From positions 1,198 through 65,197 of the forward strand of contig LCFM01000001.1 in NCBI GenBank assembly GCA_000999025.1: a DNA stretch of 64,000 bases, written 5' to 3'. A program made the translations under genes and the position numbers. Shown here one piece after another: positions 20,240 to 61,000 of the stretch. The notes beneath the pieces were generated by a model. The model ran no database searches. It saw only the letters and a list, made by a program, of their open reading frames with translations, and was not told the DNA's origin. The DNA is from Parcubacteria group bacterium GW2011_GWA2_43_13. GTDB lineage: Bacteria; Patescibacteriota; Patescibacteriia; UBA9629; GWA2-43-13. The stretch's first letter is position 1. Each line of letters begins with the position of its first letter.

Positions 20240-21292
20240 TTAAAATTGTCGCACAAACTCAACATCTCCAGAATATCCTAATCGAATATCAGGAATCCCG
20301 TACGCAAGCATCATCATACGATCAATCCCCATGCCAAAAGCAAATCCGGAATATTTCCGCGAATCAACTTTCATATTTTTTAACACCACAGGGTGTACCA
20401 TACCGGCGCCTAACATTTCCACCCATCCGGTACGCTTGCACACAGAACATCCTCCATCTCTCCTGCCCCCCCCTTGGTAAGGAGGTTGAGTACTCCCCCC
20501 GCACATCATACAACTGATATCAACCTCAAACCCGGGTTCAACAAAGGGGAAATAACTCGGCCTCAAACGTATGGTTGTATCTTTCCCATACAACCCTTTC
20601 ATGGCCGCAGAAAGGCACCCCATTAAATCCGTAACGCGAATGCCTTTGTCTATCACCAAACCCTCAAGCTGAAAAAAATTACTTCCATGAGTCGCATCAG
20701 TCGCCTCATGCCGAAAAACCCTTCCGGGAACAATAAGCCGAACAGGCGGGGTTCGATGTTCCATGGCTCGAATTTGCACTGGCGACGTATGAGTGCGCAA
20801 CACAACGCTTTCCTCTTCTTTCCCATGCCGAACATAAAACGTATCCCACATATCGCGGGCAGGATGATCTTTAGGGATATTCAATGCAGAAAAATTATAA
20901 TACCCAAGCTCTATTTCCGGCCCTTCAACAACATCAAATCCCATCCCTAAAAAAACAGAAATCACCTGATCCATCACTTGATATAATGGGTGCTCATGCC
21001 CGCGTTCAGGAATACGGCCAGGCAAGGACATATCAATTCGGGCGTTCGCTCCGCGCGCATCGTGTGTTTTAAACAATTGCATCAATTCTTGTTTTATCGC
21101 ATTGGCTATAGGGCCGATCTCTTTTTTTTCTTCCACAGATAGACCTGCCAATTGCTTCATAAGAAGGGCAACTTTCCCTTTTCTTCCCACATACAACGAC
21201 CGCCACGCTTCACGCGCGCGGTTATCAGTTTCTTTGATGTTCTTAAAAGTGTCAGTTGCTTCTTTTTGAAGAGATAAAAACGCGTCTTTCAT
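20240..21292 (-). CDS. pheS: Phenylalanyl-tRNA synthetase alpha subunit
   Basis: Class II motifs (FRHEATDATH; GFAFGMGIDRMMM). Carries an in-frame family B repeat insertion (..CGGSTQPPYQGGGRRDGGCSVC..). Confidence 0.9.
   Translation of the reverse strand: MKDAFLSLQKEATDTFKNIKETDNRAREAWRSLYVGRKGKVALLMKQLAGLSVEEKKEIGPIANAIKQELMQLFKTHDARGANARIDMSLPGRIPERGHEHPLYQVMDQVISVFLGMGFDVVEGPEIELGYYNFSALNIPKDHPARDMWDTFYVRHGKEEESVVLRTHTSPVQIRAMEHRTPPVRLIVPGRVFRHEATDATHGSNFFQLEGLVIDKGIRVTDLMGCLSAAMKGLYGKDTTIRLRPSYFPFVEPGFEVDISCMMCGGSTQPPYQGGGRRDGGCSVCKRTGWVEMLGAGMVHPVVLKNMKVDSRKYSGFAFGMGIDRMMMLAYGIPDIRLGYSGDVEFVRQF
20459..20501. repeat. Family B hairpin repeat inside pheS (in frame)
   Basis: CCCCCCCCTTGGTAAGGAGG matches the 31160 and 49755 copies (CCTTGGTAAGGAGG). 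Confidence 0.6.
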
Positions 21293-21338
21293 ATGTCCGT
21301 GTAAAGACGCATTGTTAATGCGTCTTTACTATTTATCA

Positions 21339-21722
21339 TCACGTCTTTCGTTGCGAACGATACAATAAAAGAAGTTCTATCATAGCGAACAAAAGGATAA
21401 AGAGCAAGATATTTGTCCACGGCAATAACCCGTGCGCCTGAAGGTACAAAGCAAAGTTAACAACCAACGCGTACCATATGGCATGGCGAAATGAAACTAC
21501 CACATCATGCTCATCCAGTGCGCCACGCGTACGGATTGCGTGGTACCCTAATCCGATCAGCGCAAATGTGCCTACTAATGCACATACCGATGTCGCATAA
21601 AATAATACAACACCAGTCATGCCAGATGTAAACGGATCTACAAACATCAAAACCCCACTCCATGCAATCCACATCAAGAGTGTTCCGATAAGTAAAGCAA
21701 CAGTATAGCGTTTGATAGACAT
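21339..21722 (-). CDS. Membrane protein of unknown function
   Basis: 127 aa, four predicted TM helices. Confidence 0.45.
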   Translation of the reverse strand: MSIKRYTVALLIGTLLMWIAWSGVLMFVDPFTSGMTGVVLFYATSVCALVGTFALIGLGYHAIRTRGALDEHDVVVSFRHAIWYALVVNFALYLQAHGLLPWTNILLFILLFAMIELLLLYRSQRKT

Positions 21723-21736
21723 ACATGACGATTATT

Positions 21737-21764
21737 GTAGAGACGGGGTTAACCCCGTCTCTAC
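21737..21764. repeat. Family A palindromic repeat, canonical copy
   Basis: GTAGAGACGGGGTTAACCCCGTCTCTAC, a perfect 12-4-12 palindrome. Confidence 0.85.
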
Positions 21765-21773
21765 AATAGTGTG

Positions 21774-27830: not shown

Positions 27831-27894
27831 AGGACCATCTTCAAAACAAACAAAAAAGTTATGCACAATTTATAATAGTATATCACATTTCATT

Positions 27895-27922
27895 GTAGAG
27901 ACGTATAGCAATACGTCTCTAC
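27895..27922. repeat. Family A repeat, variant loop
   Basis: GTAGAGACGTATAGCAATACGTCTCTAC. Confidence 0.75.
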
Positions 27923-31095: not shown

Positions 31096-31156
31096 ATGTA
31101 AACATCATGTAAAGTGTATACGACCCTCTCATCTCAATGAATACCTTGGAAGTAAA

Positions 31157-31270
31157 CCTCTCCCTCCCCCCTCCTTGGTAAGGAGGAGGAATAACGCACG
31201 GCCTCTCTCCTTTACAAAGGAAAAAGATAACGACGACCTCTCTCCTTGACAAGGAGTGGGTAGGTGAGGT
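31157..31270. repeat. Cluster of about 3 family B hairpin units
   Basis: CCCTCCTTGGTAAGGAGGAGG .. CTCTCCTTTACAAAGGAAAAAG .. CTCTCCTTGACAAGGAGTGGG. Confidence 0.7.
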
Positions 31271-41847: not shown

Positions 41848-42057
41848 TCACTGTGCATTGAACCCGAATAGAACATATCTGCCACATTGGTTGCATCGAA
41901 ACCCTACCACCTTCCCTTTTTTGATTTCCAATTGCAGGGTATTACTTTTCCCGCAATGCTGACACTCGTTTGTGCCCGATGAATAACTGCTATTGGCTCT
42001 TTTCCCTTCGCGAGGCGGAAACAACACCCCCCATAACCATGCTATTTGCTGTCTCAT
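41848..42057 (-). CDS. Small zinc-ribbon protein (CxxC...CxxC), hypothetical
   Basis: ECQHCGKS...CNQCGRY. Start uncertain (MRQQIAW..). Confidence 0.3.
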   Translation of the reverse strand: MRQQIAWLWGVLFPPREGKRANSSYSSGTNECQHCGKSNTLQLEIKKGKVVGFRCNQCGRYVLFGFNAQ

Positions 42058-42113: not shown

Positions 42114-43211
42114 TCACTTAAAAAGCGAAAGATATGTCTCTATATTATTCAACGTTGCAAGGCGTAAAGCAAGTGGTTCTTGGGATATAAAAAGATGACG
42201 CAGATACGCTTTTGTATATGTCCGCAGTTCTTCTAATTGCGAATCAGAATGTATTGGAGAAAAATCGTTTTTATATTGTTCATTGGTAATGGAGGTGGGG
42301 GCGACAGAGGGAAGATACAACCTTCCATGCCGGGCCTCGCGAGTTGGGATCACGCAATCAAACATATCAATCCCCTTTTTATATGCTTCGATCACTTGTT
42401 CCGGCTTTCCCACACCCATTAAATACCGCGGTTTATCTTCCGGCAAAATCGGAATCACCCAATCAAGAACTTTACGCGCTTCTTCCCACGGCTCGCCAAC
42501 CGATACCCCGCCAATCGCATACCCGTCAAACGGCATATCAACCAATGTTCGCGCGCATTGTTCACGCAAATCCTGATACATCCCACCCTGAACAATGGCA
42601 AACAGTAAATAATCGCCTTTATTTTTTTGTTTATACTTTAACGAACGCTCGGCCCATCGCAGAGTGCGTTCCATATCCTGCCCTGCTTTTTCATGTGTAC
42701 ATGGATATTCAGAACATACATCCAACACCATGCGGATATCAGAACCGATTGTGTCTTGAATTTCCAAAACTCGCTCCGGAGTAAAAAAATGCTTTGCTCC
42801 TGAAATATGATCGCGAAATTCCACACCGTTGTTAGTTATACGAACAAGAGATTTCTCTATCTGGAGAGACGGAGTTAACCCCGTCTCTCCATGACTGCTA
42901 TGACGCTTTATCCTGCCTAACGAAAATACCTGATAGCCACCGCTATCAGTTAAAATCGGCTTATCCCATTTCATAAAGCCATGCAACCCGCCTGCCTCTT
43001 TTAAACACTCTTCCCCGGGGCGCAAGTACATATGATAGGTATTGGAAAGAATAATGGTTGCTCCTAATTGCTCAAGGTCGCGCGTTGTCAGTGACTTTAC
43101 CGCCCCTTTTGTTGCAATAGGCATGAAGAAGGGGGTTCGCAATTCTCCATGTGGTGTTATGATTGCCAACTTTCTTATCATATCTATCAATGCATCGAAA
43201 TAAAAAAGCAA
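42114..43211 (-). CDS. tgt: Queuine tRNA-ribosyltransferase
   Basis: TPHGELRTPFFMP, LTDSGGYQVFSL and a Cys/His zinc site are all TGT-like. Carries an in-frame family A insert (..HGETGLTPSLQ..). Confidence 0.85.
   Translation of the reverse strand: MLFYFDALIDMIRKLAIITPHGELRTPFFMPIATKGAVKSLTTRDLEQLGATIILSNTYHMYLRPGEECLKEAGGLHGFMKWDKPILTDSGGYQVFSLGRIKRHSSHGETGLTPSLQIEKSLVRITNNGVEFRDHISGAKHFFTPERVLEIQDTIGSDIRMVLDVCSEYPCTHEKAGQDMERTLRWAERSLKYKQKNKGDYLLFAIVQGGMYQDLREQCARTLVDMPFDGYAIGGVSVGEPWEEARKVLDWVIPILPEDKPRYLMGVGKPEQVIEAYKKGIDMFDCVIPTREARHGRLYLPSVAPTSITNEQYKNDFSPIHSDSQLEELRTYTKAYLRHLFISQEPLALRLATLNNIETYLSLFK
42863..42890. repeat. Family A repeat inside tgt
   Basis: GGAGAGACGGAGTTAACCCCGTCTCTCC. 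Confidence 0.8.
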
Positions 43212-48736: not shown

Positions 48737-48783
48737 AAACTATCGCTCCCTCTCCTTGATAAGAAGAGGGTTGGGGTGAGGGT
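48737..48783. repeat. Family B hairpin unit
   Basis: CTCCCTCTCCTTGATAAGAAGAGGGTTGGGGTGAGGG. Confidence 0.65.
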
Positions 48784-48795: not shown

Positions 48796-49614
48796 TTATT
48801 CATCCAACCGTACCGCGTTGATCATTTTCTCAACAGCCGCATTCATACCTGAAGAAAGCGCATGTGTCCATGACCCGCTTTCATTGGCACCTGTCTCATA
48901 AATCTTAATTCCAGCAACATGTGATTGTTCCTGTTGTTGAATCAGCTCGCGCGCGACGATACGCTCCTGCGCGCGATTCCACTCATCACCCACTTCTCCG
49001 ACTTTTTGCCATATGACTTCAGTTCCGGCTATAATCCGGGCAACAAAACCCTGCGATGGAGGTTGAACTCCTTGAAAAAATCCAATACTGCCTAAAAACG
49101 CGGTTACTGCAAGAATACCAATCAATGAACTTATCAACACTCGCTCTAAAACCGTTTGATTCAACACCAACCTCGTAAACAGCATGCATACCGCGCCGAT
49201 ACGCACCCAAAAAGAAAAAGAATGCTTTGGCGGTTGCGGCACACACATACCCACTGTCTTCTGTGATATATTTTGTACTATTAGTTCTGCCTCAGAGTGT
49301 ACTTGTTTCTTGTTTTGTGTGTATTGTACTGGTGATGTGTATTCTTGTTTTTTCCCGCCAGGAACGGATCCGCCTTTGGCGAAATTATTTGTTTTTTGTC
49401 CACTTGCATTGTACGCTTCTTTTTTTTGTTCCCATGACGATTGATCAATATAATCATCAACCCATGCGCGGGTTGTTACCCACGAGCGGCCCTGTTTCAC
49501 TGCTTTTAATTTCCCCTGACGAGCGCGCAGAGAAAGATATTCTTGGGAATATGGCGTACCCTGCGCCGCTTGAGTTAAAGAAATATATTCTGTTGATTGT
49601 TTTTTTTGTGGCAT
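48796..49614 (-). CDS. Hypothetical membrane protein
   Basis: 272 aa; central TM helices (LISSLIGILAVTAFLGSIGFF). Confidence 0.45.
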   Translation of the reverse strand: MPQKKQSTEYISLTQAAQGTPYSQEYLSLRARQGKLKAVKQGRSWVTTRAWVDDYIDQSSWEQKKEAYNASGQKTNNFAKGGSVPGGKKQEYTSPVQYTQNKKQVHSEAELIVQNISQKTVGMCVPQPPKHSFSFWVRIGAVCMLFTRLVLNQTVLERVLISSLIGILAVTAFLGSIGFFQGVQPPSQGFVARIIAGTEVIWQKVGEVGDEWNRAQERIVARELIQQQEQSHVAGIKIYETGANESGSWTHALSSGMNAAVEKMINAVRLDE

Positions 49615-49749: not shown

Positions 49750-49860
49750 GTAAGACCTCCCCTCTCCTTGGTAAGGAGGGGAGACGCGTCGGTTCCCTCT
49801 CTTTTAAGAAGGAGAGGGTTAGGGTGAGGTATCCCCTCCTTTTTAAGGAGGGGGGAGAAG
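49750..49860. repeat. Cluster of about 3 family B hairpin units upstream of smpB
   Basis: CTCTCCTTGGTAAGGAGGGGAG .. CTCTCTTTTAAGAAGGAGAGGG .. CCCCTCCTTTTTAAGGAGGGGGG. Confidence 0.7.
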
Positions 49861-50372: not shown

Positions 50373-50373
50373 A

Positions 50374-50718: not shown

Positions 50719-50725
50719 ACTCATT

Positions 50726-50808
50726 AAAGGCGACACCAATACGCGAATGTCACACGAATGACACAAATCTTCGCGTCATTCGCGTGTATTCGTGTATTGA
50801 TGTCTCAT
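50726..50808. repeat. About 85-nt leader element upstream of rplT (copy 1 of 2)
   Basis: Near-identical to 51024-51102: ..GCGACACC.ATAC.C.AATG.CACA.ATGACACAAAT.TTCGCGTCATTCGCGTGTATTCGTGTATTG. Confidence 0.7.
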
Positions 50809-50815
50809 TATATTA

Positions 50816-51019: not shown

Positions 51020-51023
51020 ATAC

Positions 51024-51102
51024 TACGCATTAAATGCGACACCGATACACAAATGACACAAATATTCGCGTCATTCGCGTGTATTCGTGTATTGGTATCG
51101 CA
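51024..51102. repeat. About 85-nt leader element upstream of rpmI (copy 2 of 2)
   Basis: See 50726-50808. Confidence 0.7.
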
Positions 51103-51657
51103 TTAGTCACTTTTTGCTTGTAAAATCATAAACAATTTCGGGCCTTGTGATTGAAGTGGCGTATCAATAGTTGCGTCCTGTGAAAGCATATCGCTAAAGA
51201 TATGAAACACCTCCTCTGCTCGGTCCCGATGCGCCTTCTCTCGACCGCGCATCACAATTTCAGCTTTCACCTTATGTCCTTTTTCAAAAAATTTCAAGGC
51301 CTGCTTCTTGCGAACCTCTAAATCATGCTCTTTCATCCCCACAGAAAGCCGCACTCCCTTTACTTCAACTGCCTTTACTTTTGCCTTTTGCTTTTGCCGT
51401 TTTTTCTGCTCTTGATAGTTAAAACTGCCCCAATTCTCAAATTTGCATACCGGTGGCACTGCAACAGGCGATACTTCTATCAAATCATATCCCCGCTCTT
51501 CTGCCAATGACAAGGCATCTCGGGTTTTCATAACCCCAAGATTATTTCCCGCTTCATCAACAACCCGTACTTCTGGAACGCGAATACGATCATTCACTCG
51601 AAATAATGGCTGTTGTATCTGGCGTCTTTTATAATGACTAACTCGACGTATTCTCAT
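51103..51657 (-). CDS. infC: Translation initiation factor IF-3
   Basis: ..RVPEVRVVDEAGNNLGVMKTRDALSLAEERGYDLIEV.. and C-terminal domain. Confidence 0.85.
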   Translation of the reverse strand: MRIRRVSHYKRRQIQQPLFRVNDRIRVPEVRVVDEAGNNLGVMKTRDALSLAEERGYDLIEVSPVAVPPVCKFENWGSFNYQEQKKRQKQKAKVKAVEVKGVRLSVGMKEHDLEVRKKQALKFFEKGHKVKAEIVMRGREKAHRDRAEEVFHIFSDMLSQDATIDTPLQSQGPKLFMILQAKSD

Positions 51658-51953
51658 CTCGATTCTTGATCATTTGAAGTAGGAATATCCTCCCACCCTA
51701 TTGATCGTAAAAAATGGTGTAATTGATGTTTTAATTGCCGTCTCCCTTTACTAGTTTTAAGAAATTGCTCCCGAACAACCGCATCAATTTTCAATATATA
51801 CACTTCGTAGTATACCAATTTCAATGGTCTTCGCCCCTTCGTTGATATAACCATGCCTTGGTTGTGAACATGGACACGATTTTTGAGATCTGATGAACTC
51901 CCAATATAGAAACCATTATCCTTTGTGCTATGAAGAATATACACATAATACAT
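51654..51953 (-). CDS. Stand-alone GIY-YIG domain protein
   Basis: YYVYILHSTKDNGFYIGSSSDLKNRVHVHN matches the GIY..YIG..R..H.N pattern; 4-nt overlap with infC. Confidence 0.7.
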   Translation of the reverse strand: MYYVYILHSTKDNGFYIGSSSDLKNRVHVHNQGMVISTKGRRPLKLVYYEVYILKIDAVVREQFLKTSKGRRQLKHQLHHFLRSIGWEDIPTSNDQESR

Positions 51954-52690
51954 AGCATTCTATCTATTGGCACGGGGACCTGGCACTCCGCTTCGCTTCG
52001 GCCTGGGCATGGCACTTCTCCCTTCTTCAGGTGCTCACACTATAATAACCTACTTGTGGCTTGCCGCGGTCTTGGCCCCGTCACTTCGTTCGCTCATGCT
52101 CACTTCGGACAGGGCACGACACTCGCATATATTATTCAAACTTCAACGCTCTATCAAATGCTTCTGGCTTGCCACGACCGAGCCATCGAAAATGGCGAGT
52201 GTCGTGGAGATGGCGGGAATTTCACCCGCGTCTAAACAGTGTTTCATTTTTGGTGTGCCATCAGAGAGCATCTTTAAAATTTTGCGGAAAATGGTTAAAG
52301 ATGTTCAAAAAAACATTTCCGCTATCACCGATCAAGGGGTCAAAAGCGCCACGATGACAAGCACTTTCCAATCACCATGGTTGGCGCCAGTGATTCGCTA
52401 TGGTGACTCGCGAAGCTGACGGCATGTCACTGTTTAGGCGACAGCTGGTGCGAATGAAAAACCAGCAAAAGCTGATTTCACGCGCGCGACAAGATTCTTG
52501 GCATTTGTCGGCTTGGTTAAGAGATTAACGAGCGATCAACCACGCTCGAATGGCCAAAATATGAAACAATCTGCTTATCGAATAATACCATCCCCATGTT
52601 TGTGGGCTATTCGTAAAGATTCGTGATGTATTCGTGGCGAAGTATAATAAAAAACAACCCTGCCGTCAAGCCCATCGAGCAAAAAATAGG

Positions 52691-53323
52691 TTATTCCAAA
52701 CTAAACTCAACTAACTCTTTTTTTATCTTTTTCTCACTCACCTCAACCCCGGGCATAAAAACCACCTTTTCATCATATTTGACATCATCAAAATACGCTA
52801 ATTGTATTCTAAACAATTTACTGTTAAATTGTGTGCCAAATATGGATTCAGCTTGTTGTACAATCTCCTGCAACGAATGATAACCTTTCATAATAAAACG
52901 CAAATCAACATAATCCTTCCACTTTGCCCGCCGACCTAAAGCGTATGCTTTCATCGCGGCCAACGTGACTAAATTTGGCATTTTGATTATACCCTCAAAA
53001 TCTTCCGTGTATGCTATATCAAATGGATAATGATAAAACGTAACTTTTACATCCCCCACTAAAAAGGTTAATTCTCCTGATTTATCAACAATAACGTGGC
53101 TTATTTTTACAACTCGTTCAATTTTTTTCTTAAGAGCGGATGTCCTAAACTCCTTGTTTGAAAATAAATCAAAATCAATTGATTCTCTATGACCAATGTG
53201 TAAAGCGATAGCAGTACCTCCAACCAACCCATATTCTTTCCTCATGTACTTTAACAACGGCAATAATGCTACCTGTTCGTCTGTGAGTATTTCCTTATGC
53301 ATATTTATTAAAATACAAGGCAA
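52691..53323 (-). CDS. AbiEii/AbiGii-family nucleotidyltransferase (DUF1814-like), module 2
   Basis: GLVGGTAIALHIGHRESIDFDLF corresponds to the GGTAL...R.S.D(I/L)D(F/L) hallmark of AbiEii NTase toxins. Confidence 0.65.
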   Translation of the reverse strand: MPCILINMHKEILTDEQVALLPLLKYMRKEYGLVGGTAIALHIGHRESIDFDLFSNKEFRTSALKKKIERVVKISHVIVDKSGELTFLVGDVKVTFYHYPFDIAYTEDFEGIIKMPNLVTLAAMKAYALGRRAKWKDYVDLRFIMKGYHSLQEIVQQAESIFGTQFNSKLFRIQLAYFDDVKYDEKVVFMPGVEVSEKKIKKELVEFSLE

Positions 53324-53570
53324 AGTAATGCTTTACTTCCGCCCGATAATTTTGCCGACCCATTTTTGAGGGTTTGGATTTTTCACGAAAAATTTTAGCA
53401 ACTTTTTTGATGCCTAAAATCTTAATTAATGTCTGCACGTCATCCCAATCCCCATAATTCAGAGTTGCCTCCACAATGGACTCTGCCTTTAGTTTATCGT
53501 AATCCTTTACCCACCAAATAAGATGTTTTCTTTCTTTAATAAAATCATGAATGGTCATAGTCAAATACAT
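53295..53570 (-). CDS. Small partner protein of NTase module 2 (candidate antitoxin)
   Basis: 91 aa; overlaps both flanking genes; weak similarity to the 54176..54406 product (W..., .DWDD/.YWDT..L..IL motifs). Confidence 0.4.
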   Translation of the reverse strand: MYLTMTIHDFIKERKHLIWWVKDYDKLKAESIVEATLNYGDWDDVQTLIKILGIKKVAKIFREKSKPSKMGRQNYRAEVKHYFALYFNKYA

Positions 53571-54258
53571 CCTTTTCTAATTTTTCTGCTTCTTTCAAAA
53601 AAAATTTCTTCCAATGATTATGATTAAACGGTTGTACCATGCGCGGATAATCTTTCAATTTTTGCGCCTGAATAAACTGTGTCCCCAATTGAAGCGGGTC
53701 AATATGCCAGTCGAATTTTATCTTTGCTTTCTTCGTAATATCTGAAAGTGAAAATGGATACGTCTGCAAAATAAAAAAAAGATCAATAAAATCCCTGGCC
53801 GTTAAGCGCTGGTATATGGTAAAAAGTTTATTCACCGCTAAATCTATAATACTCTCAACCCGTATCCCCTCCTGCTGGAGAGGATTTTCAATCGGAGAAA
53901 ACGGGAAATAGGTGAATTCCATTTTGAGTATTTCACTGTTTTTAAGCGTCAAAAAATAGATATGACGGTTAAAGGTATGCTGAAAATCAATGTCAGTGAT
54001 TGCAAGTTCTTTTCGTAAAGATGTCAAAAAAACATGGATCATCTCAGGGTCAACTTCTTCTTGTGAGAACAAATCAAGATCTTCGGAAAACCGATGATGC
54101 AAATAAAACCCTGCCAAAGCGGTACCGCCGGTTAAAACAAACTGGTCATTTATATCTTTAGCTTGAGATATTTTTTTAATGACTTTTCTTTGGGATGCGG
54201 TAAGAATTTTCTTTGTCATGGATAAAAAGGTTAAGAAACTCCCGCCGGTGAGGATCAA
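53545..54258 (-). CDS. AbiEii/AbiGii-family nucleotidyltransferase (DUF1814-like), module 1
   Basis: LTGGTALAGFYLHHRFSEDLDLF. The likely true start is MTKKILT at 54219. Confidence 0.65.
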   Translation of the reverse strand: MILTGGSFLTFLSMTKKILTASQRKVIKKISQAKDINDQFVLTGGTALAGFYLHHRFSEDLDLFSQEEVDPEMIHVFLTSLRKELAITDIDFQHTFNRHIYFLTLKNSEILKMEFTYFPFSPIENPLQQEGIRVESIIDLAVNKLFTIYQRLTARDFIDLFFILQTYPFSLSDITKKAKIKFDWHIDPLQLGTQFIQAQKLKDYPRMVQPFNHNHWKKFFLKEAEKLEKDVFDYDHS

Positions 54259-54406
54259 TGTTCAGTGTATCCCAGTACTTGCGAAGTTCTTGCATAGAGA
54301 GCTTTTCTTTGCCAATGCCAAAATTAATTAGCTGTTCAAGTCGCCATTTAGCATACTGTTTTTTACCTTTTTTCAGCGCTGTTGTATCTGTAGACCAATT
54401 GTACAT
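54176..54406 (-). CDS. Small partner protein of NTase module 1 (candidate antitoxin)
   Basis: 76 aa, first gene of the apparent four-gene operon; overlaps the NTase gene. Confidence 0.4.
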   Translation of the reverse strand: MYNWSTDTTALKKGKKQYAKWRLEQLINFGIGKEKLSMQELRKYWDTLNIDPHRREFLNLFIHDKENSYRIPKKSH

Positions 54407-54420
54407 AAAATGTATTCTAA

Positions 54421-54452
54421 ACCACCCCTATCCCCTCCTTTTAGAGGAAGGA
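54421..54452. repeat. Family B hairpin in the 5' UTR of the NTase operon
   Basis: CCCCTATCCCCTCCTTTTAGAGGAAGG. Confidence 0.6.
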
Positions 54453-54463
54453 TATTTACCTGT

Positions 54464-54493
54464 ATTATAGCATAGAATTGAAATTTTAGACAA
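54464..54493 (-). promoter_or_regulatory. Sigma70-type promoter for the small-protein/NTase operon
   Basis: Minus strand: TTGTCT, 18 nt, TGcTATAAT (extended -10), about 55 nt upstream of the ATG at 54406. Confidence 0.55.
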
Positions 54494-54539
54494 TAACGTA
54501 TTATCAAAAATAGGGCTTATTTTAGCTAATCTCTGGTTG

Positions 54540-54568
54540 TTGACAATAATTACAAGATATGGTACTAT
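54540..54568 (+). promoter_or_regulatory. Sigma70-type promoter firing rightward toward the GC-rich island
   Basis: TTGACA, 17 nt, TGgTACTAT (extended -10). Confidence 0.55.
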
Positions 54569-54762
54569 GGCATGTTTTCTGAAAACTGAAGTTGAGAGTT
54601 GATCAAACGTGCGGTGTAAGGCCTTGTGTCGTACATCGCGCGCTCTGATGAGCTCTTAATACATGTAAGAATAGTACAAATCACGAAAAAACTGATACAT
54701 CCAAGATATTAAGCGATTGTGAGTTGCGTGACTTGTACTTATTTTCATTCAATTGGTGGGCG

Positions 54763-54852
54763 ACCTCACCCTAACCCTCTCCTTATAAAGGAGAGGGAAA
54801 CGAATCCCCCCTTAAGAGGGGAACGACGCGCCTCCTTCCTTGAGGAAGGTGG
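54763..54852. repeat. Cluster of about 3 family B hairpin units in the long leader of the GC-rich island
   Basis: CCCTCTCCTTATAAAGGAGAGGG .. CCCCCCTTAAGAGGGG .. CCTCCTTCCTTGAGGAAGGTGG. Confidence 0.7.
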
Positions 54853-55140
54853 CACCCGCAGGGTGACGGAAGGTGTTACCACTAATTGACTTGCCCAGTC
54901 CTCGTGACTGGGGCTCACTTCATATCTGATAATACACAACCGATATTCGTATCATTTGCATGAATTTGTATATTTGCGTCGCATTTGTCAGATAAAAAGT
55001 GGGACTTTCGTGAGCGTGGGTATGTTGCCTGCGCTTAATGCGTCGTTCATCGACAACGAGTTGAGGTTACGTTGTCCCCTACCTCAACTACACTTCACAA
55101 CGCATCACGCAAGTGATGCGCTCTCGTAAGGAGCTTCAAA

Positions 55141-56262
55141 ATGCGTCAAAAACTGAGTTTTCAACTCTACCTCATCAAGACCGGTGACGAGAGGAAAGAC
55201 AAAGGAAACGGAACTGCGGAAGCGTTGCTCGTCGAAATCACGGACCTTGACCAAACGGGTCCGTATGAGTTGTACTGCGAGAATGGGATCATGGCCGAAG
55301 GCGACCGCGCAGCGATCCAGAAATTTCTCGAGGCGGAGGTTGCCAAGCAACCGACGGCCGAAGAAGAGCTTCTTGCCGAGACGCAAGACGAGCTCGCCAC
55401 AAGGACGAGCGAGCTACGTGCTGTCCAGGGGACGGCACGGCAGATCGCCGGCGAGCGCGACGTGGCGGTTGCCCAGCGGGATGAATCCCGCCTCGGGCAC
55501 GATCTGATCGTGAACAAGCTCGCCGAAGTCGCGAAAGCGAATGGCGAGCTCCAGGAGACGTTCGAGCAAACGTACGAGAAGCTCACCGACGCTCAGGCCG
55601 ACGTGTTGTCGGCGAAAAGCGAGCTCAGGACCGCGAACGATGCCTTGGCTTGGATGCGTGCGCGGATGACAAACTTTCTTGGCATGATCGGCCTCACGGC
55701 CAATCTCATCAACGACTCCAACGCAGATCATAACGTAACAGCAAGGATCTACGAAATCAAACAACATACGGCCTGGTACTGCGGTGTCACTGGTCTCGTC
55801 GTCGGCGGGATCATCGTCGGCGCCATCTGGCTCTTCACGACGGCGTTCGACGGCTGTGCGGGGAAACCCAACAACCAGCCGCCGACACTGTCGGTTACGC
55901 CGACAGCGACGACGGTCGAGATCGGGAAGGTCGCGACGGTGTCCTACGATGTCACCGACCCTGACGACAAGAAGCATGACGTCGAGGTTGTGACCAGTCC
56001 CAAAATCGGGAAGGTCACAGTCGACCAGGAATCGAAGACTCTGACGTACACCTCCGATGGCATCAGCCTCGGGGATGATACGTTCCAGGTCGTCGCAAAA
56101 GACAAAGAGTCCACCTCACCCGCTATTGACGTCAACGTTACCGTCAACGCCGCTCCGGCGCCCACCCCACCCGCCACGACTGGCGGCGGTGGGACGACAC
56201 CGCTGGCCGACGACTGGGATAAGGTAACGATCCCCGACGTGTCGGGGATCAAAGGACGCTAA
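55141..56262 (+). CDS. High-GC island gene 1: coiled-coil / single-TM / cadherin-like (bacterial Ig-like) domain protein
   Basis: AAGGAG 8 nt upstream of ATG. N-terminal coiled coil, TM (GLVVGGIIVGAIWLF), then VTDPDDKKHDVEV..TYTSDGISLGDDTFQVVAKDKESTSPAIDVNVTVN (cadherin/VCBS-like). About 60% GC against ~40% background. Confidence 0.7.
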   Translation: MRQKLSFQLYLIKTGDERKDKGNGTAEALLVEITDLDQTGPYELYCENGIMAEGDRAAIQKFLEAEVAKQPTAEEELLAETQDELATRTSELRAVQGTARQIAGERDVAVAQRDESRLGHDLIVNKLAEVAKANGELQETFEQTYEKLTDAQADVLSAKSELRTANDALAWMRARMTNFLGMIGLTANLINDSNADHNVTARIYEIKQHTAWYCGVTGLVVGGIIVGAIWLFTTAFDGCAGKPNNQPPTLSVTPTATTVEIGKVATVSYDVTDPDDKKHDVEVVTSPKIGKVTVDQESKTLTYTSDGISLGDDTFQVVAKDKESTSPAIDVNVTVNAAPAPTPPATTGGGGTTPLADDWDKVTIPDVSGIKGR

Positions 56263-56328
56263 CAACCAAGGCAATGGCGTGGGGGAGGAGAAATACAACC
56301 CCACGCACTCTCTTAAGGAGTTCGACGA

Positions 56329-57315
56329 ATGAAACGAATTTTCGTTCCGCTCTTCGTGTTTGGAATCGTGAGTGCCTCCTATGGTCAAGTGGACCCGGAG
56401 GCACGGTCGCGCACGGTGGTGTTGAAACAAGAGCTCGCAAAGCAAGGTGGCGCTCTGAACAACCTCGATACGCGGCTCACCGCCGTCGAGGGAAAACCGG
56501 CGCCGAAGACGCCAAGTTCAGGGCACGACGTTACAGCGCGACAAATGGCGTTGTGGCTCGCAGAACGAGCGTTTGTGCGGGATGGCTATACACCCGAAGC
56601 CGCACAGGCCGAAGCCGCCCGTGTGATCACGGGGGGACTCGGGAAAAACGCTCGTCTCCGCGAGTTGCGCGCGTATGCCACGGCATACGCACTCCGCGAC
56701 CCATCGAAACTCATCGGCGACGTGGAGCGCAACGTAAACACAAAAATCGTCGGGTTGAAAACCGACGTCGACGCGCTTGCCGGACGCGTCGGAAAGAACG
56801 AAACGACCCTGACGGAACAGGGCACCAGCCTCGGCGTCGTCGAGACAGACTTGAAAGCCCTGAAATACGGGCTCAAGGCCACGATCAACGATGCGATCAC
56901 GGCGAAGTGCGTCGGCTATTACACGAAAGCCGACGCCGACGCCGCGGTCACGAAGGCCATCTTCGAAGCAGTTACAAAGCTACAGACAGATGGTCTCATG
57001 ACCAGTGCCAAGGAGGTTCGTGAGTTCGTCGGCGACGCTCTCGCGCCATACGCGAAGGGCGCCGAGCTCGCGGTAGTGCTCAAGCAAACCCTCGCGCTCA
57101 CGAGCGAACTGATCGGATTCGTCCCCCACGTCAAGGTAGACGTAAGGGGATCCGACGATCACTACCGCGACGCGCGAATCGGCGAGCTGACCGCCATCGA
57201 AAACGCCCTCAAGGCGGCGATGGCACCGGACAAGCCGGCGGAGGCGACGACGCCTTCCGCCGCGGACGATCACGAACACGAAGCCAACCTCGAATTCGAC
57301 TTCATCACCCAGTAG
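56329..57315 (+). CDS. High-GC island gene 2: secreted coiled-coil protein
   Basis: AAGGAG RBS; signal peptide MKRIFVPLFVFGIVSASYG; long alpha-helical/coiled-coil body. Confidence 0.65.
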   Translation: MKRIFVPLFVFGIVSASYGQVDPEARSRTVVLKQELAKQGGALNNLDTRLTAVEGKPAPKTPSSGHDVTARQMALWLAERAFVRDGYTPEAAQAEAARVITGGLGKNARLRELRAYATAYALRDPSKLIGDVERNVNTKIVGLKTDVDALAGRVGKNETTLTEQGTSLGVVETDLKALKYGLKATINDAITAKCVGYYTKADADAAVTKAIFEAVTKLQTDGLMTSAKEVREFVGDALAPYAKGAELAVVLKQTLALTSELIGFVPHVKVDVRGSDDHYRDARIGELTAIENALKAAMAPDKPAEATTPSAADDHEHEANLEFDFITQ

Positions 57316-57336
57316 AGACCTGGGTGTATGCTACAC

Positions 57337-57397
57337 ATCGGATTGGAATGGAATCATACACAACGCTGTATTGAGACCACCAATCCGATTTTTTTAT
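57337..57397 (+). terminator. Terminator-like hairpin after island gene 2
   Basis: ATCGGATTGG...CCAATCCGAT followed by TTTTTTT. Confidence 0.5.
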
Positions 57398-57410
57398 TTA
57401 CGAAAAACAT

Positions 57411-57440
57411 CCCCCTACCCTCTCCTTGGCAAGGAGAGAA
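57411..57440. repeat. Family B hairpin unit at the right edge of the GC island
   Basis: CCCCCTACCCTCTCCTTGGCAAGGAGAGAA. Confidence 0.65.
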
Positions 57441-57460
57441 AAATTCTAAAATGTCTCTCC

Positions 57461-57721
57461 TTATTTCCTATAAACATCTTTGCGATGACCAATAGTGACA
57501 AACAATGCAACGCCACTCTCTATAAAAACAAAAATTACTCGATACTCTCGAGTAATACGAAAAGAAAAGGCCATGTGCTAATCTACTAATTTTTTAACAT
57601 GCAACCGCGAATCACGCCAATCGGCACAAAAAATATCTTCTTGTTTGTGGTACAATCCCTGAATATGCGCAGGAAGTTTATGAAATCTCTTACGAAATTC
57701 ATCGGCATACAGAACTTTCAT
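57461..57721 (-). pseudogene. RelE/ParE-family toxin gene interrupted by one in-frame amber codon
   Basis: MKVLYADEFRKRFHKLPAHIQGLYHKQEDIFCADWRDSRLHVKKLVD, then TAG, then HMAFSFRITREYRVIFVFIESGVALFVTIGHRKDVYRK. The halves match the N- and C-terminal parts of RelE/ParE; ATGA overlap with the antitoxin gene. Confidence 0.6.
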
Positions 57722-57948
57722 AACCTCGAAGATACTTTACCATTGTGCCAATCTTGTATACCTCGCTTAAACGATGACTTTAACGCCTGTGGTTGATCGT
57801 AATTGGCAAAAGCATCTTTAGGAAATTCTGAAGCGATCCCTTCTAACACGCGCACACTAAAATCATGCAAAGAAAGACCATATGATAAAGCTAACCCCTG
57901 CAATCGCCGAGCAGATTTAGGAGGTAATTTTATTGTTACTGTTTCCAT
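57718..57948 (-). CDS. Ribbon-helix-helix (CopG/ParD-like) antitoxin
   Basis: METVTIKLPPKSARRLQGLALSYGLSLHDFSVRVLEGI: beta strand plus two helices; upstream of and translationally coupled to the toxin remnant. Confidence 0.6.
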   Translation of the reverse strand: METVTIKLPPKSARRLQGLALSYGLSLHDFSVRVLEGIASEFPKDAFANYDQPQALKSSFKRGIQDWHNGKVSSRL

Positions 57949-58016
57949 ACATCTTTTACTATACTACACAAATACTCCCTATGACAATAGTCGCAAGCAT
58001 TACACAAAAGACGCTC

Positions 58017-58043
58017 CACCGGAGCGTCTCTACAATATCATCA
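58017..58043. repeat. Family A variant just downstream of the giant gene
   Basis: AAAGACGCTCCACCGGAGCGTCTCTAC. Confidence 0.65.
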
Positions 58044-58045
58044 TG

Positions 58046-61000
58046 TTACGCGGCTTTGGAAAGATGTTTTGCAAGTTCTTGTTCAACAGTATCGAACACT
58101 AATTTGCTTTTTGGATCCAGATGCTCCACTATACCGGCAAGAACGCGCCAGCTATGCCATGACTGCTGATTTAATATATTCTTATTAAGCATATCTTGGG
58201 CAGAAAGCCCTAAAATATTTCTCACCCCGATTGCCGCATTTTTCCGCAATTTCGTGTCATCAGACAGTAAATTATTTATTAAACTTTGCGCGTTACCTTT
58301 ATATTTTCCCAACGCATCAACTGAATCGATTGACGTATTCATATACTCAACCAACTCGGACTGTTTCACCGCTCCAACAACCTCTTGAAATGAGGCATCA
58401 TCATGAATAATAGTATGAGCAGAATCAAGCCACTCCGGGGTAATAATTTTTTTAGCATCGTAGGTGAAAAGTTCTGCAATGGCTTTACCGTCATCATCGG
58501 AGACGGGGCGACGCCCCGTCTCTACAACACCAGCAATGGCACTGCTGGTTTCGTGATGCGCATTTGGGATGACATCAACAGTGCCGATGTCTTTATCAGT
58601 TCCTTTGATAGGATGATCTTTGAGCCATTCGGTATAATCGTGCAGTTCGTGACCACGCGCGCCGTTGGGCAGAACGTGACGGATTGAAATAATTTTTTCA
58701 TTGCCCTTGGGGAGTTGCTCTAATACTACATCAGGTGTTTGCGGGTTGCTTGCGCCAAATTTGACGGCAATAATCTCTGGTGGTTGAGACCCCACCCCAC
58801 CCTCCCCTTGTAAAGGGGAGGGAGACGACAATTCACCATGTGAAAAACGGGCGATGTCGTGCGGATCAGTAACAGGTCGCACCCATGCGTGATGATCATG
58901 CATTGTAATATGGTTCCATGGTCCGCCTTCATCTTTAGAAAGATGCTCAAGTGTTTTTGAAATAGTTCCAACATCAGCATCTTGATGAATTGCATGGAAT
59001 GAAGTTAAAATATTTGCTTCTTCTGCGCCGATACTTCCTGATACCGGACCTGGGATATCGCCAGTTGCGCCAATGCTTTCGCGCAGGGCTTCTAATGCTT
59101 CAGACCTCACCCCGCCCTCTCCTTGGAAAGGAGAGGTGGACGATAACTCCCCTTCACCCTCTCTGACCTCAAGAAGGAGGACATGCGCGTCGGTGTTGGG
59201 TAATTGCAATTCATGGGTATGGCCATCAACAATCATGCCTTGCGGAGAAGGGACCGCAAGCGGTTCAAACCTCACCCTCCCCTCTCCTTTTAAAGGGGAG
59301 GGTAACGACGACGACACACCCTCTGTCCTCCTCTCAAGAGGGGGGATCGTCGCCCCCCTTCCTTGAGGAAGGGTTGGGGAAGGTGTTGCGTCATGCGATT
59401 TCGAAAAATCATATTCATGGGAAATATCAGACGGACGCTCAAACACAGCGCCTGCAGTATGGGTTTCAAACGGAGCATACGCGCCACGCGTTGGGTCATA
59501 TGTATATTCACCAACCGCCCATGTTCCTTGCGGTGTTTTATGCAACCAATACGCAGGATTCTCGCCAGCTCCGGCAACGCCGGTATCCAGTACACGCACC
59601 TCATGACCTGCATTATCAACATACCCATAATCGCGCGCAATCAAATGCGCCAGATTGCCACGATCTCCTGTTCCATAACGCTGTGAAAAATATGAAAACG
59701 CATCATGGTTTTGCCCGAGTTGACGATGTAACACATGCTCAACACCCTCCCCCCTGCCAACCACAGCGCTCATTGGAAGATGCCCTGCATCAGGCAAAGG
59801 AACAGGGCCATGAGGCGTGGCTCCACCACCATCTGCCGCATGCGCGACTTCGCGCAAATGAGCAACCTCACCCAACAAAAACGCTCCTATAATCGCTCCG
59901 CCAACTTTATACACTAACCTACGATTTCTATTTCTAATATCTAACACATTATTACCTTGAGCATCATACATTCCGCTTCGCGTCCGTTCTGCTTGCCGAA
60001 ACTCGGTATATTCAGCGTGAAGTGATCCGCCTGTCTGTTGAATAGTTTCAAATTTTTGAGGAATGCTTTTTTCACCTGTTCTCAATCCATCCGGCCTCAC
60101 GCGCGGAGGTTGGGCATTCGTGCTCCACAATGGTCGCTCCCATTCTACCAAAAGTTTTAAATGCATTACTTTAGTATACATTTTTTTAAACCGTTCATAT
60201 TGATGGCTAAATTCATGATGATTTTTTAAATTTTCAATATATGGCTGGGTTTCTGCAAGTACTTTCAGCATTGGCTGCAATTGGGCATCAATATTCGCAA
60301 CGTCGGAAATGGTTAATTCGTTCTCTATTTTTTGCAATGTCTTTTCGTATTCCCCCAACTTACCCGATTCAAGCGCTTTGAGCGATTGCTCAACACCTGT
60401 CTCTGGCGCATTCCTGCCTGTGCGCAATGCAAACCCCCACCTGCCATGAGGCCCGCCCCATGGCCGACCAATACCACCTGAATCAGCTAATGCTCCTCCC
60501 ATTTTCCATCCGCTGTACGCGCCTACTGCCGCCGCCCCCGCTACCCCAAAAGTGCGCAAAAACGATAATCCCAACCCAACGCCTAATGCTGTAGCGCCTG
60601 CAAACGCTTTATCACGTGGCGAAGTGTTATGCCATAAAATTCCGCGGTTGCGATCTTGCTTTGTAAATCCAAGCGGCCGAGTAGTGCGCATGCCATCCGC
60701 AACTGTGCCAAAAAATTCATGATACCCATGTTGCGCGCCCTGACTGCGCTGATCCATTGCCTCTTGATACCGTGTTTTTGCCTCATCATCCATTGAATAA
60801 TACAATGCAAATCGCATGGCGCGGGATTGAATATCTTCTGCAGATAATCGTTGCGCCTCTTCTAATGCGTTATTTTCAGCAGTCAGCGCGCCTAAAAACC
60901 GATTATAATATTCATCAACTCCTAACGGGTCTTGAATCCCCTGCTCTGCTCTGATACGATTGCGGTTTGTGTTTTCAACATAATTGGCAATAGAAAATGA

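What the first reader, a model, noticed from the sequence alone, without database searches (positions are those of the whole stretch)
20459..59382. Family B: CCCTCTCCTT-loop-AAGGAGAGGG hairpin repeats, often in tandem triplets, also inserted in frame in pheS and four times in a giant gene
A second, unrelated short hairpin family occurs at 20459 (inside pheS), 31157-31270, 48737, 49750-49860, 54421, 54763-54852, 57411, 58787, 59104 and 59270. The unit is CT-rich arm / 3-4-nt loop / AAGGAG-rich arm, often two or three units in a row. Intergenic copies place Shine-Dalgarno-like AAGGAGG inside a stem, as in the 5' UTR of the NTase operon and upstream of smpB. Coding copies add Pro/Gly-rich peptides: QPPYQGGGRRDGG in PheS within its Cys cluster, and SPLKGEGRVRFEPL, SPFQGEGGVRSE and SPLQGEGGVGS in the giant protein. 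Units flank both edges of the high-GC island (54763-54852 and 57411-57440).
Basis: seen in the sequence. Interest (0 to 1): 0.75.

Follow-up and report, generated by a model that had tools for sequence, protein, structure and literature searches.

The report
BoxC-type triple-helix repeats invading genes
These hairpin repeats belong to an old, unexplained bacterial repeat family (BoxC, or intrastrand-triplex motifs); here they sit in frame inside essential genes of a small-genome bacterium, and in other genomes the same motif brackets a small uncharacterised nuclease gene that may be what moves them.

Summary
The repeats are real: CCCTCTCCTT with at most 1 mismatch occurs 22 times against 2.07 expected. 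Full units carry a third segment (CCTCACCC / GGGTGAGG) that mirrors the purine arm, so the G-rich strand can fold into a purine-motif intrastrand triplex. There are 9 such motifs against 0 in shuffles.

This is the known BoxC / PIT / TM_ECO family (Holder et al. 2015). One 19-nt block is identical to the E. coli consensus. The core occurs in at least 12 phyla.

The window comes from a Patescibacteria (Jacksonbacteria-like) genome. Elsewhere the motif sits in frame in GltX, IF-2, UvrC and other proteins.

Shine-Dalgarno sequestration is not supported, because the AAGGAGG motifs lie 24-26 nt from the start codons.

New lead: the motif is tightly linked to DUF559 (Vsr-like nuclease) genes. Of 80 loci chosen only by DUF559 homology, 53 have a motif within 200 nt and 35 have one on both sides, usually as inverted ends. 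Homology between loci stops at the outer ends of the motifs. Family B probably consists of gene-less relatives of such cassettes. No DUF559 gene and no polymorphism were seen in this window.

The parts
1948..1990 (-). Decayed unit inside gatB. The purine arm AAGGAGGGGG, linker ta and mirror arm GGGGGAGGTA match 10/10; the pyrimidine arm is degenerate. It encodes TGGRSLDKEGVGGG (residues 298-311).
   Evidence: T. maritima and A. aeolicus GatB show a gap of about 15 residues exactly here.
20453..20491 (-). 39-nt in-frame insert in pheS (TQPPYQGGGRRDG, residues 268-280) between the CxxC and CxxC motifs. It is a decayed member of the CCTTGGTAAGGAGG subfamily.
   Evidence: The 14-mer CCTTGGTAAGGAGG is exact at 20472, 31173 and 49766, against 0.01 expected.
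31155..31189 (-). Triplex unit: CCTCCTCCTT acc AAGGAGGGGG ga GGGAGAGGTT. It is the left member of a composite in the divergent intergenic region between the addA-like gene and the small-exporter gene.
   Evidence: k=10, 2 mismatches.
31201..31225 (.). Middle CT/AG hairpin of the 31155-31270 composite.
31238..31270 (+). Degenerate triplex unit: CTCTCTCCTT gac AAGGAGTGGG ta GGTGAGG. It is the right member of the composite.
48748..48781 (+). Single triplex unit: CCCTCTCC ttgataa GAAGAGGG ttg GGGTGAGG. It lies between the stop of ORF 48796-49614 and the ileS start.
49756..49785 (.). Hairpin CCTCCCCTCTCCTTggtAAGGAGGGGAG, the left member of the composite upstream of smpB.
49795..49831 (+). Triplex unit: CCCTCTCTTT taag AAGGAGAGGG tta GGGTGAGGTA.
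49833..49853 (.). Hairpin CCCCTCCTTtttAAGGAGGGG, 24 nt upstream of the smpB AUG.
54421..54451 (-). Short triplex unit: CCTTCCT ctaaa AGGAGGG gatag GGGTGGT. It lies upstream of the AbiEii gene pair.
54763..54797 (-). Perfect triplex unit: CCCTCTCCT ttata AGGAGAGGG tta GGGTGAGGT. The 19-nt block GGAGAGGGTTAGGGTGAGG is identical to E. coli TM_ECO type A.
   Evidence: Table 1 of PMC4666352.
54804..54821 (.). Middle hairpin CCCCCCTTaagAGGGG of the 54763-54880 composite.
54834..54880 (+). Hairpin CCTTCCTtgAGGAAGG with a distant GGAAGG mirror segment (long linker). It is the right member of the composite, at the left edge of the high-GC island.
57407..57438 (-). Hairpin CTCTCCTTgccAAGGAGAG with a degenerate third arm (8/10), at the right edge of the high-GC island. 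It is the only unit followed by a T-rich tail on the - strand.
58789..58822 (-). Perfect triplex unit inside the giant ORF: CCCTCCCCT ttaca AGGGGAGGG tg GGGTGGGGT. All three arms have changed together relative to the consensus. It encodes SPLQGEGGVGS.
59104..59136 (-). Perfect triplex unit inside the giant ORF, encoding SPFQGEGGVRS.
59268..59302 (-). Triplex unit inside the giant ORF, encoding SPLKGEGRVRF. It is the left member of a composite.
59327..59345 (.). Middle hairpin CCTCCTCTcaAGAGGgGG of the 59268-59384 composite, in frame in the giant ORF.
59356..59384 (+). Perfect triplex unit of a different sequence (CCCTTCCT tg AGGAAGGG ttg GGGAAGGT), inverted relative to 59268-59302 and in frame in the giant ORF.

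Best explanation
Family B is an AT-extended variant of the BoxC / PIT / TM_ECO repeats, which are DNA-level, structure-defined, non-autonomous repeats. A full unit is a pyrimidine arm (Y), a loop, a purine arm (R), a 2-4-nt linker, and a third arm (H) that mirrors R under the purine-motif triplex code (G.G-C, A.A-T, T.A-T). When the G-rich strand is single-stranded it can fold into a hairpin with a third strand laid in its groove. Shown here: the architecture, the joint variation of all three arms, sequence identity with the E. coli family, spread over many phyla, and in-frame insertion into pheS, gatB and a giant ORF. [quoted passage not shown] Inferred: the units are gene-less, MITE-like relatives of compact cassettes in which two inverted units bracket a DUF559 (Vsr-like PD-(D/E)XK) nuclease gene. 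That nuclease is proposed to recognise or nick the folded end and so drive copying into new sites. In this genome the copies look fixed and currently inactive. Coding copies survive because their lengths are multiples of three, they avoid stop codons, and they fall in tolerant segments, where they encode Pro/Gly/Ser/Glu/Arg-rich peptides. I put family identity at about 0.9, a DNA-level selfish repeat rather than a regulator at about 0.7, and DUF559 as the partner enzyme at about 0.4.
For: Enrichment and architecture come (9 motifs against 0.0 in shuffles; 10 purine mirror pairs against 0.33). Among hairpins other than the seed sequence, in the window plus 120 loci, 27 have a perfect 8/8 third arm against 3.9 expected when R arms are permuted. 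Copy 58789 changes all three arms together. Family identity rests on PMC4666352 and on a BLAST of the window unit, which hit 4513 of 5426 E. coli genomes at 23,242 places. For distribution, more than 120 genome loci from at least 12 phyla match, and 119 of 136 seed matches carry the complementary arm. Insertions are shown for PheS and GatB. In-frame copies also lie in GltX, IF-2, UvrC, an Elp3-like protein, peptidase M16 and FemAB in other genomes. An RNA-level role is unlikely: no Rfam family matches, only one unit has a T tail, and both orientations occur within transcripts. For the DUF559 link, DUF559 was the only small ORF family to recur across phyla in the 120 TM-seeded loci; the most recurrent cluster of all was generic ABC ATPases. 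Of 80 loci chosen only by DUF559 homology, 53 have a motif within 200 nt and 35 have one on both sides. Motif density is 4.08/kb near the gene against 0.21/kb in the rest of the flanks. The arrangement is oriented: 36 of 43 nearest upstream units and 32 of 42 nearest downstream units have the H arm facing the gene. Homology among five loci stops at the outer ends of the units. E. coli ycjD carries motif remnants and TM_ECO no. 9 just downstream. An Uhrbacteria cassette carries the same AT-extended variant as this window.
Against: tblastn found no DUF559 gene in the 64-kb window, and the rest of this genome could not be read. Ten independent assemblies of 40-60 kb are identical at every unit, so nothing shows current mobility. 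No target-site duplications or empty sites were found, and the E. coli ycjD-minus locus gives no clean junction. The composites in the window have their H arms on the outside, which is the reverse of the cassette geometry. More distant DUF559 genes on viral contigs are seldom flanked (2 of 14 clearly, 2 more weakly). E. coli genomes without ycjD still carry units. Holder et al. saw no triplex in vivo by DMS footprinting, and Hoyne and Maher found no in vivo effect. A nuclease of about 120 aa has no known strand-transfer activity.
Confidence: 0.6

Rival explanations
1. DUF559 genes are homing-type selfish genes that insert into pre-existing unit doublets. On this view the units are their targets, not their ends, and they spread by some other route.
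For: E. coli doublets have the same inner-H geometry with only 16-27 nt between units (Table 1), which is what an unoccupied target would look like. The Vsr/DUF559 clade contains a group I intron homing endonuclease, I-Bth0305I (PMC3424549). ycjD is an accessory gene, present in 3378 of 5426 E. coli genomes. Units are far more numerous than DUF559 genes.
Against: Homology between cassettes in unrelated contexts includes both units and ends at their outer edges. The ORF often reads through the right-hand unit, so gene and unit co-evolve.
Confidence: 0.17
2. The units are host-serving DNA structural elements that promote local recombination or variation or pause replication. This is the genomic-instability reading of Holder et al., and here they would mark island boundaries.
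For: TM_ECO loci are more rearranged among E. coli strains than control loci (PMC4666352). Units lie at both edges of the high-GC island, at 54763-54880 and 57407-57438.
Against: Ten assemblies show no variation at any unit. In-frame copies inside essential genes are hard to read as adaptive. Instability is equally expected from a selfish repeat.
Confidence: 0.1
3. The units are RNA-level regulatory hairpins, acting by Shine-Dalgarno sequestration, attenuation or termination.
For: AAGGAGG lies inside stable stems, and the composites fold with z-scores of -3.7 to -6.6. One unit, 57437-57410 on the - strand, has a T-rich tail.
Against: The AAGGAGG motifs are 24-26 nt from the start codons. Both orientations occur within transcripts. 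Copies lie inside ORFs. No Rfam match was found. The third arm covaries by the triplex rule, and the purine motif does not form in RNA. The E. coli units have no promoter or terminator activity.
Confidence: 0.05
4. The units are REP/REPIN-type elements moved by a RAYT (HUH Y1) transposase acting on single-stranded hairpins.
For: The units have a conserved head next to a hairpin, occur as inverted doublets, and are dispersed mostly between genes.
Against: There is no GTAG head. A different repeat in the window (Family A) has one. No Y1 transposase was seen among the ORFs scanned or as a recurrent neighbour. The head obeys the triplex mirror rule.
Confidence: 0.04
5. The G-rich strand forms a G-quadruplex rather than a triplex.
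For: GG AGA GGG TTA GGG TGA GG has four G tracts.
Against: A quadruplex needs neither the complementary pyrimidine arm nor the A/T positions that vary in mirror fashion. NMR excluded a quadruplex for the E. coli sequence.
Confidence: 0.03

Closest known systems
BoxC / PIT elements / TM_ECO intrastrand triplex motif (E. coli; Bachellier et al.; Hoyne and Maher 2000, 2002; Holder et al. 2015, PMC4666352)
   Same: Same order of arms (Y-loop-R-linker-H, class II purine motif). The core GGAGAGGGTTAGGGTGAGG is identical. Both occur as singles and as inverted doublets, are dispersed in many copies, show no strand bias and have no known function.
   Different: The window units have 8-nt G/C cores extended by T.A-T triples, not 9-nt G/C stems, so the strict TM_ECO pattern finds 0 matches. 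The host is a Patescibacteria genome. Copies lie in frame inside genes, whereas the E. coli copies are all intergenic. The doublets here have their H arms on the outside.
Rickettsia palindromic elements (RPE; Ogata et al. 2000, from my own knowledge)
   Same: Short palindromic repeats inserted in frame into many unrelated genes, including housekeeping genes, of a reduced genome. They add surface peptides without destroying the protein.
   Different: RPEs are 100-150 nt, confined to Rickettsia, and have no triplex arm. No sequence relation was tested.
REP / REPIN elements with RAYT transposases
   Same: Short structured repeats with a conserved head beside a hairpin. Inverted doublets occur, and a small nuclease gene is flanked by inverted copies of the repeat.
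   Different: The flanked gene here is DUF559 (PD-(D/E)XK, Vsr-like), not an HUH Y1 enzyme. There is no GTAG head. The head is a triplex third strand.
MITEs and their parent insertion sequences
   Same: Gene-less units and doublets far outnumber gene-bearing cassettes that share the same ends.
   Different: No DDE transposase is present and no target-site duplication was seen. The ends are triplex-forming, not plain inverted repeats.
Vsr-like homing endonuclease I-Bth0305I (PDB 3R3P; same clade as DUF559 in PMC3424549)
   Same: A small Vsr-fold nuclease encoded by a selfish element.
   Different: That enzyme is intron-encoded and targets a specific gene. DUF559 activity is untested; the only solved relative is 3HRL, an 'endonuclease-like protein'.

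Membership tests
Intrastrand triplex motif, G/C-rich class II (ITxF definition: stems 6-15 nt, loops 1-6 nt, at most 1 mismatch) | Pyrimidine arm, purine arm and a reverse-Hoogsteen arm on one strand, obeying G.G-C / A.A-T / T.A-T | tested here: met
   9 motifs against 0.0 in 30 shuffles. My finder allowed first loops of 2-8 nt, and two units (48748, 59268) have loops slightly over 6 nt.
Intrastrand triplex motif, G/C-rich class II | The third arm varies together with the duplex arms | tested here: met
   27 perfect 8/8 third arms among non-seed hairpins against 3.9 expected by permutation. Window copies 58789 and 59356 carry different sequences with matching third arms.
Intrastrand triplex motif, G/C-rich class II | The isolated strand actually folds into a triplex (CD, NMR) | not testable with these tools
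   Shown only for the E. coli sequences. ViennaRNA models hairpins only.
TM_ECO / BoxC (E. coli) | Published pattern CCCTCNCCC N3-6 GGGNGAGGG N3 GGGNGAGGG | tested here: not met
   0 matches. The 8-nt core version matches 3 times against 0 expected. The difference is a coordinated C-G.G to T-A.T change at the stem end.
TM_ECO / BoxC (E. coli) | Sequence similarity to the E. coli copies | tested here: met
   The best places are 85-88% identical over about 41 nt; matches occur in 4513 of 5426 genomes. A 19-nt block is identical to Table 1 entries.
TM_ECO / BoxC (E. coli) | Exclusively intergenic location | tested here: not met
   Six units lie inside ORFs: pheS, gatB and four in the giant ORF.
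REP / RAYT | GTAG-type head 5' of the palindrome and a cognate Y1 transposase gene | tested here: not met
   The head is CCTCACCC. No Y1_Tnp hit appeared among the 17 window ORFs scanned, nor as a recurrent neighbour. Not every window ORF was scanned.
Intrinsic terminators | G+C-rich hairpin followed by a T run | tested here: not met
   Only 57437-57410 (-) qualifies.
MITE | Terminal inverted repeats plus target-site duplication, and presence/absence polymorphism | tested here: inconclusive
   The composites are inverted doublets. No duplication was evident at the PheS insert, and there is no polymorphism in 10 assemblies.
Rfam RNA families | A match to any curated covariance model | tested here: not met
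   Only tmRNA reaches its threshold. No sub-threshold hit explains the units.
DUF559 cassette (proposed here) | A DUF559 gene between two inverted units with the H arms facing the gene | tested here: not met
   No DUF559 homologue in the window. The window units are therefore at most gene-less relatives. The rest of the genome could not be read.

The most novel reading that the evidence does not exclude
BoxC-type triplex repeats, unexplained since the 1990s, are the terminal structures of a compact (about 0.5 kb) mobile cassette found in several phyla. The cassette encodes a DUF559 Vsr-like nuclease. The folded triplex end is that nuclease's substrate. The thousands of orphan units are its gene-less derivatives; these include BoxC in E. 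coli, Family B here, and the in-frame inserts in PheS, GatB, GltX, IF-2 and UvrC.
Probability: 0.4. Interest if true: 0.85.

Novelty: new variant of a known kind. Interest (0 to 1): 0.6.

Why it matters
BoxC / PIT / TM_ECO repeats have been catalogued for about 30 years without a function or a means of spread. Three results here bear on that. First, the same core is present far outside Proteobacteria and Cyanobacteria, including reduced Patescibacteria genomes. Second, the units insert in frame into essential translation and repair genes (PheS, GatB, GltX, IF-2, UvrC), as Rickettsia palindromic elements do. That is direct evidence of past insertion and a source of protein-length variation. Third, the units are linked, with a consistent orientation, to an uncharacterised nuclease family (DUF559, which includes E. 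coli YcjD). This gives a concrete, testable candidate for the partner enzyme. If it holds, it defines a new kind of minimal mobile element whose ends are recognised as a three-stranded DNA fold.

Tried and rejected
- **Giant-protein inserts.** The C-terminal 719 aa of the giant protein gave no homologues in a protein search, so those four inserts could not be checked against insert-free relatives.
- **Population variation.** Ten other assemblies of window 39.9-60.3 kb are identical at all units. The only differences are N runs and scaffold gaps.
- **Rfam.** Searches at gathering and E-value thresholds gave nothing for the units.
- **PheS structure.** The model from a 13-sequence alignment is weak (mean pLDDT 64). 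It shows only that residues 267-288 are unstructured and of low confidence, so I did not use it for a fold search.
- **First DUF559 alignment.** The 7-sequence alignment was too diverse for the locus scan, so I used 3 sequences.
- **Empty site for ycjD in E. coli.** In ycjD-minus genomes the homology ends about 40 nt before TM_ECO no. 9, and an eef efflux locus follows. There is no clean junction.
- **ycjD against unit number.** This could not be cross-tabulated per genome. ycjD-minus genomes still show 1-5 extra unit matches.
- **Viral contigs.** Only 25 stretches carry the seed, and 2-4 of 14 viral DUF559 genes have units nearby. Phages are therefore not an obvious vector.
- **Weak mirror pairs.** Those at 41899 and 43904 have no pyrimidine arm and were treated as chance.
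- **Literature.** Searches for DUF559, ycjD, COG2852, intrastrand triplex and Patescibacteria in-frame repeats found no paper linking DUF559 to these repeats. The library lacks most subscription journals.

Full report
**Observation.** CCCTCTCCTT with at most one mismatch occurs 22 times against 2.07 +/- 1.55 in dinucleotide shuffles. PheS homologues place the window in a Patescibacteria (CPR) genome whose closest named relatives are Candidatus Jacksonbacteria. Its G+C content is about 43% and most genes lie on the - strand. The same DNA is held in MHJS01000023.1, MHJT01000015.1, DNHW01000013.1 and Rifle aquifer scaffolds.

**Anatomy.** Orienting the copies shows that the unit is asymmetric: head CCTCACCC, 2-3 nt, then CCCTCTCC(TT)-loop-(AA)GGAGAGGG, often followed by ACGAC.
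- The head is a mirror image, not a complement, of the hairpin arm.
- On the G-rich strand the order is pyrimidine arm (Y), loop, purine arm (R), linker, third arm (H).
- H pairs with R by the purine-motif triplex code: G.G-C, A.A-T, T.A-T.
- A finder written for this architecture gives 9 G-rich motifs in the window against 0.0 in 30 shuffles.
- Purine mirror pairs alone number 10 against 0.33.
- Copies with different stems carry matching third arms: AGGGGAGGG/GGGTGGGGT at 58789 and AGGAAGGG/GGGAAGGT at 59356.
- Among hairpins other than the seed sequence, in the window plus 120 loci from other genomes, 27 have a perfect 8/8 third arm against 3.9 expected when purine arms are permuted.
- About half of the hairpins in the window lack a clean third arm.
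- Four sites are composites of an inverted pair of units with a middle hairpin: 31155-31270, 49756-49853, 54763-54880 and 59268-59384. They fold as long inverted repeats, with z-scores of -3.7 to -6.6.

**Identity.** A literature search on GGGTGAGG led to Holder et al. 2015 (PMC4666352).
- The E. coli BoxC repeat, rediscovered as PIT elements by Hoyne and Maher and renamed TM_ECO, is CCCTCTCCC-loop-GGGAGAGGG-TTA-GGGTGAGGG.
- It folds into a very stable class II triplex in vitro, by CD and NMR.
- No triplex was seen in vivo by DMS footprinting.
- It has no promoter or terminator activity and is always intergenic in K-12.
- It is associated with locally rearranged regions.
- The window unit 54763-54797 shares the 19-nt block GGAGAGGGTTAGGGTGAGG with it.
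- That unit hits 23,242 places in 4513 of 5426 complete E. coli genomes.
- The strict 9-nt TM_ECO pattern gives 0 matches here and an 8-nt core version gives 3. The stem ends have changed as whole triples, from C-G.G to T-A.T.

**Distribution.** They come from Patescibacteria (many lineages), Cyanobacteria, Bacteroidota, Alpha- and Gammaproteobacteria, Desulfobacterota, Chloroflexota, Nitrospirota, Planctomycetota, Verrucomicrobiota, Armatimonadota and the Chlorobi/Ignavibacteria group. In 119 of 136 matches the complementary arm GGAGAGGG follows within 2-10 nt. Matches without a complementary arm include L004 and L008 (Streptomyces) and L052 (Nitrospirales), and these look like chance. The flanks are lineage-specific and the core is shared.

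**Coding copies.**
- PheS carries a 13-residue insert (268-280; nt 20453-20491). It is absent from 11 other Patescibacteria PheS proteins and from the solved S. haemolyticus enzyme.
- The PheS insert DNA shares the exact 14-mer CCTTGGTAAGGAGG with the units at 31173 and 49766.
- The PheS model is weak and shows only that the insert is unstructured.
- GatB carries an insert of about 15 residues over a decayed unit at 1948-1990. It is absent from T. maritima and A. aeolicus GatB.
- The giant ORF reads through four units. It has no homologues, so those inserts cannot be checked.
- In other genomes the same motif lies in frame in GltX, IF-2, UvrC, an Elp3-like radical SAM protein, peptidase M16, FemAB, giant cyanobacterial kinases and a giant intein-bearing protein. 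It does so in several reading frames and in both orientations.
- This behaviour resembles that of Rickettsia palindromic elements and is not described for BoxC in the papers I could read.

- The AAGGAGG in the stem upstream of smpB ends 24 nt before the AUG. The one upstream of the AbiEii operon ends about 26 nt before the start of the small ORF. Neither is a plausible Shine-Dalgarno site.
- No Rfam family matches the units.
- Only one unit, 57437-57410 on the - strand, has a T tail.
- Units do sit at both edges of the high-GC island, but no assembly lacks the island, so that point stays open.

**A new lead: DUF559.** I looked for a partner gene by clustering all ORFs of the 120 loci.
- The most recurrent cluster was generic ABC ATPases. 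The only small family recurring across phyla was DUF559 (PF04480), a Vsr-like PD-(D/E)XK fold.
- It occurred in Bosea, Methylobacterium, an Uhrbacteria, a Moranbacteria, a gammaproteobacterium and Kapaibacterium. Units lay within 16-210 nt of the gene, and on both sides in three of the six.
- In E. coli K-12 the one DUF559 gene, ycjD, ends in a decayed unit (..RRSPSP*). It is followed by a duplicated 3' remnant and by TM_ECO no. 9, 168 nt downstream.
- As a test independent of the repeat, I fetched 80 metagenome loci chosen only by DUF559 homology.
- Of these, 53 have a G-rich class II motif within 200 nt of the gene and 35 have one on both sides.
- Motif density is 4.08 per kb next to the gene against 0.21 per kb in the rest of the flanks.
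- The nearest upstream unit has its H arm towards the gene in 36 of 43 cases, and the nearest downstream unit in 32 of 42.
- Five loci from five samples share 67-81% identity only within a unit of about 530 nt. Its ends are the outer ends of the two motifs, and the flanks are unrelated at DNA and protein level.
- The Uhrbacteria cassette is 465 nt, carries the same AT-extended variant as this window, and its ORF reads through the right-hand unit.
- Caveats: the 80 loci are the closest relatives of unit-flanked queries.
- More distant DUF559 genes on viral contigs are seldom flanked, 2 of 14 clearly and 2 more weakly.
- The window has no DUF559 gene.
- The window composites have the opposite geometry, with H arms on the outside.
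- ycjD is accessory in E. coli (3378 of 5426 genomes), and genomes without it still carry units.
- No clean empty site was found.
- No paper in the library links DUF559 or ycjD with these repeats.

**Mechanism.**
- Shown: the three-arm architecture with joint variation, the family identity, and past insertion into genes.
- From the literature: triplex folding of the isolated strand.
- Inferred: the units act at the DNA level when the G-rich strand is unpaired. They are gene-less relatives of DUF559 cassettes, and the nuclease recognises or nicks the folded end, seeding copy-in by repair.
- Main rival: DUF559 genes home into pre-existing doublets.
- Less likely: host-serving instability elements, RNA regulators, REP/RAYT elements and G-quadruplexes. 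The reasons are given under each rival.

**Verdict.** The family itself is known, so on its own the finding is a new variant in a new host. The in-frame invasion of essential genes and the DUF559 link raise its value, because they make an old open question directly testable.

Noticed in passing
Several copies lie inside ORFs (the addA-like gene, ORF 42114-43211 and the giant ORF).
   Followed up: no
window 46876-46934, 50752-50810, 51047-51105, 54936-54986: A 51-59-nt repeat (..TTCGCGTCATTCGCGTGTATTCGTGTATTG..). It lies in the infC-rpmI and rpmI-rplT spacers, inside ileS and upstream of ORF 55141. Function unknown.
   Followed up: no
window 54834-57438: The high-GC island (G+C 0.49-0.53; two ORFs, one with only a weak Big_9 hit and one with no family hit). 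A G-type-like unit lies on its left and a C-type-like unit on its right. That is the same geometry as the DUF559 cassettes, but the third arms are degenerate and the two units differ in sequence.
   Followed up: partly
window 51654-51953 (-), 52202-52595 (-), 52691-54406 (-): A 99-aa GIY-YIG ORF abuts the infC start. A tmRNA gene and two AbiEii-family nucleotidyltransferase genes, each with a small upstream ORF, lie next to it. smpB lies 2 kb away on the other strand.
   Followed up: no
window 39-700: Tandem coding repeats of about 144-162 nt at the left end of the window (families D5, D8 and D11).
   Followed up: no
L032 (Kerfeldbacteria), giant ORF of more than 2600 codons: Two intein-like insertions (CVTGDTKL...VAHN) each carry a unit-derived peptide just after the N-terminal splice motif. 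The units have therefore also entered inteins.
   Followed up: no
L161 (E. coli K-12, record 1351240-1351406) and L256 (O157:H7): Downstream of ycjD there is a duplicated remnant of the ycjD 3' end plus a fragment of a unit. In ycjD-minus genomes the fabI-side homology stops about 40 nt before TM_ECO no. 9, and an eef efflux locus follows.
   Followed up: partly
L242 (IMG/VR contig), 17-100 nt upstream of a DUF559 gene: Three tandem units of an A/T-extended type (CCCCCCTTT aga AAAGGGGGG tt GGGGGGATT) lie directly upstream of the gene, and three more lie about 1.2 kb downstream.
   Followed up: no
L203 versus L207, about 3890-3955: Two near-identical metagenome contigs differ by a 64-nt extra copy of another short repeat (..AAGAGGAAGAATCCCTTC..GGGTTAGG..) close to a DUF559 gene. 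This is a presence/absence polymorphism of a different element.
   Followed up: partly
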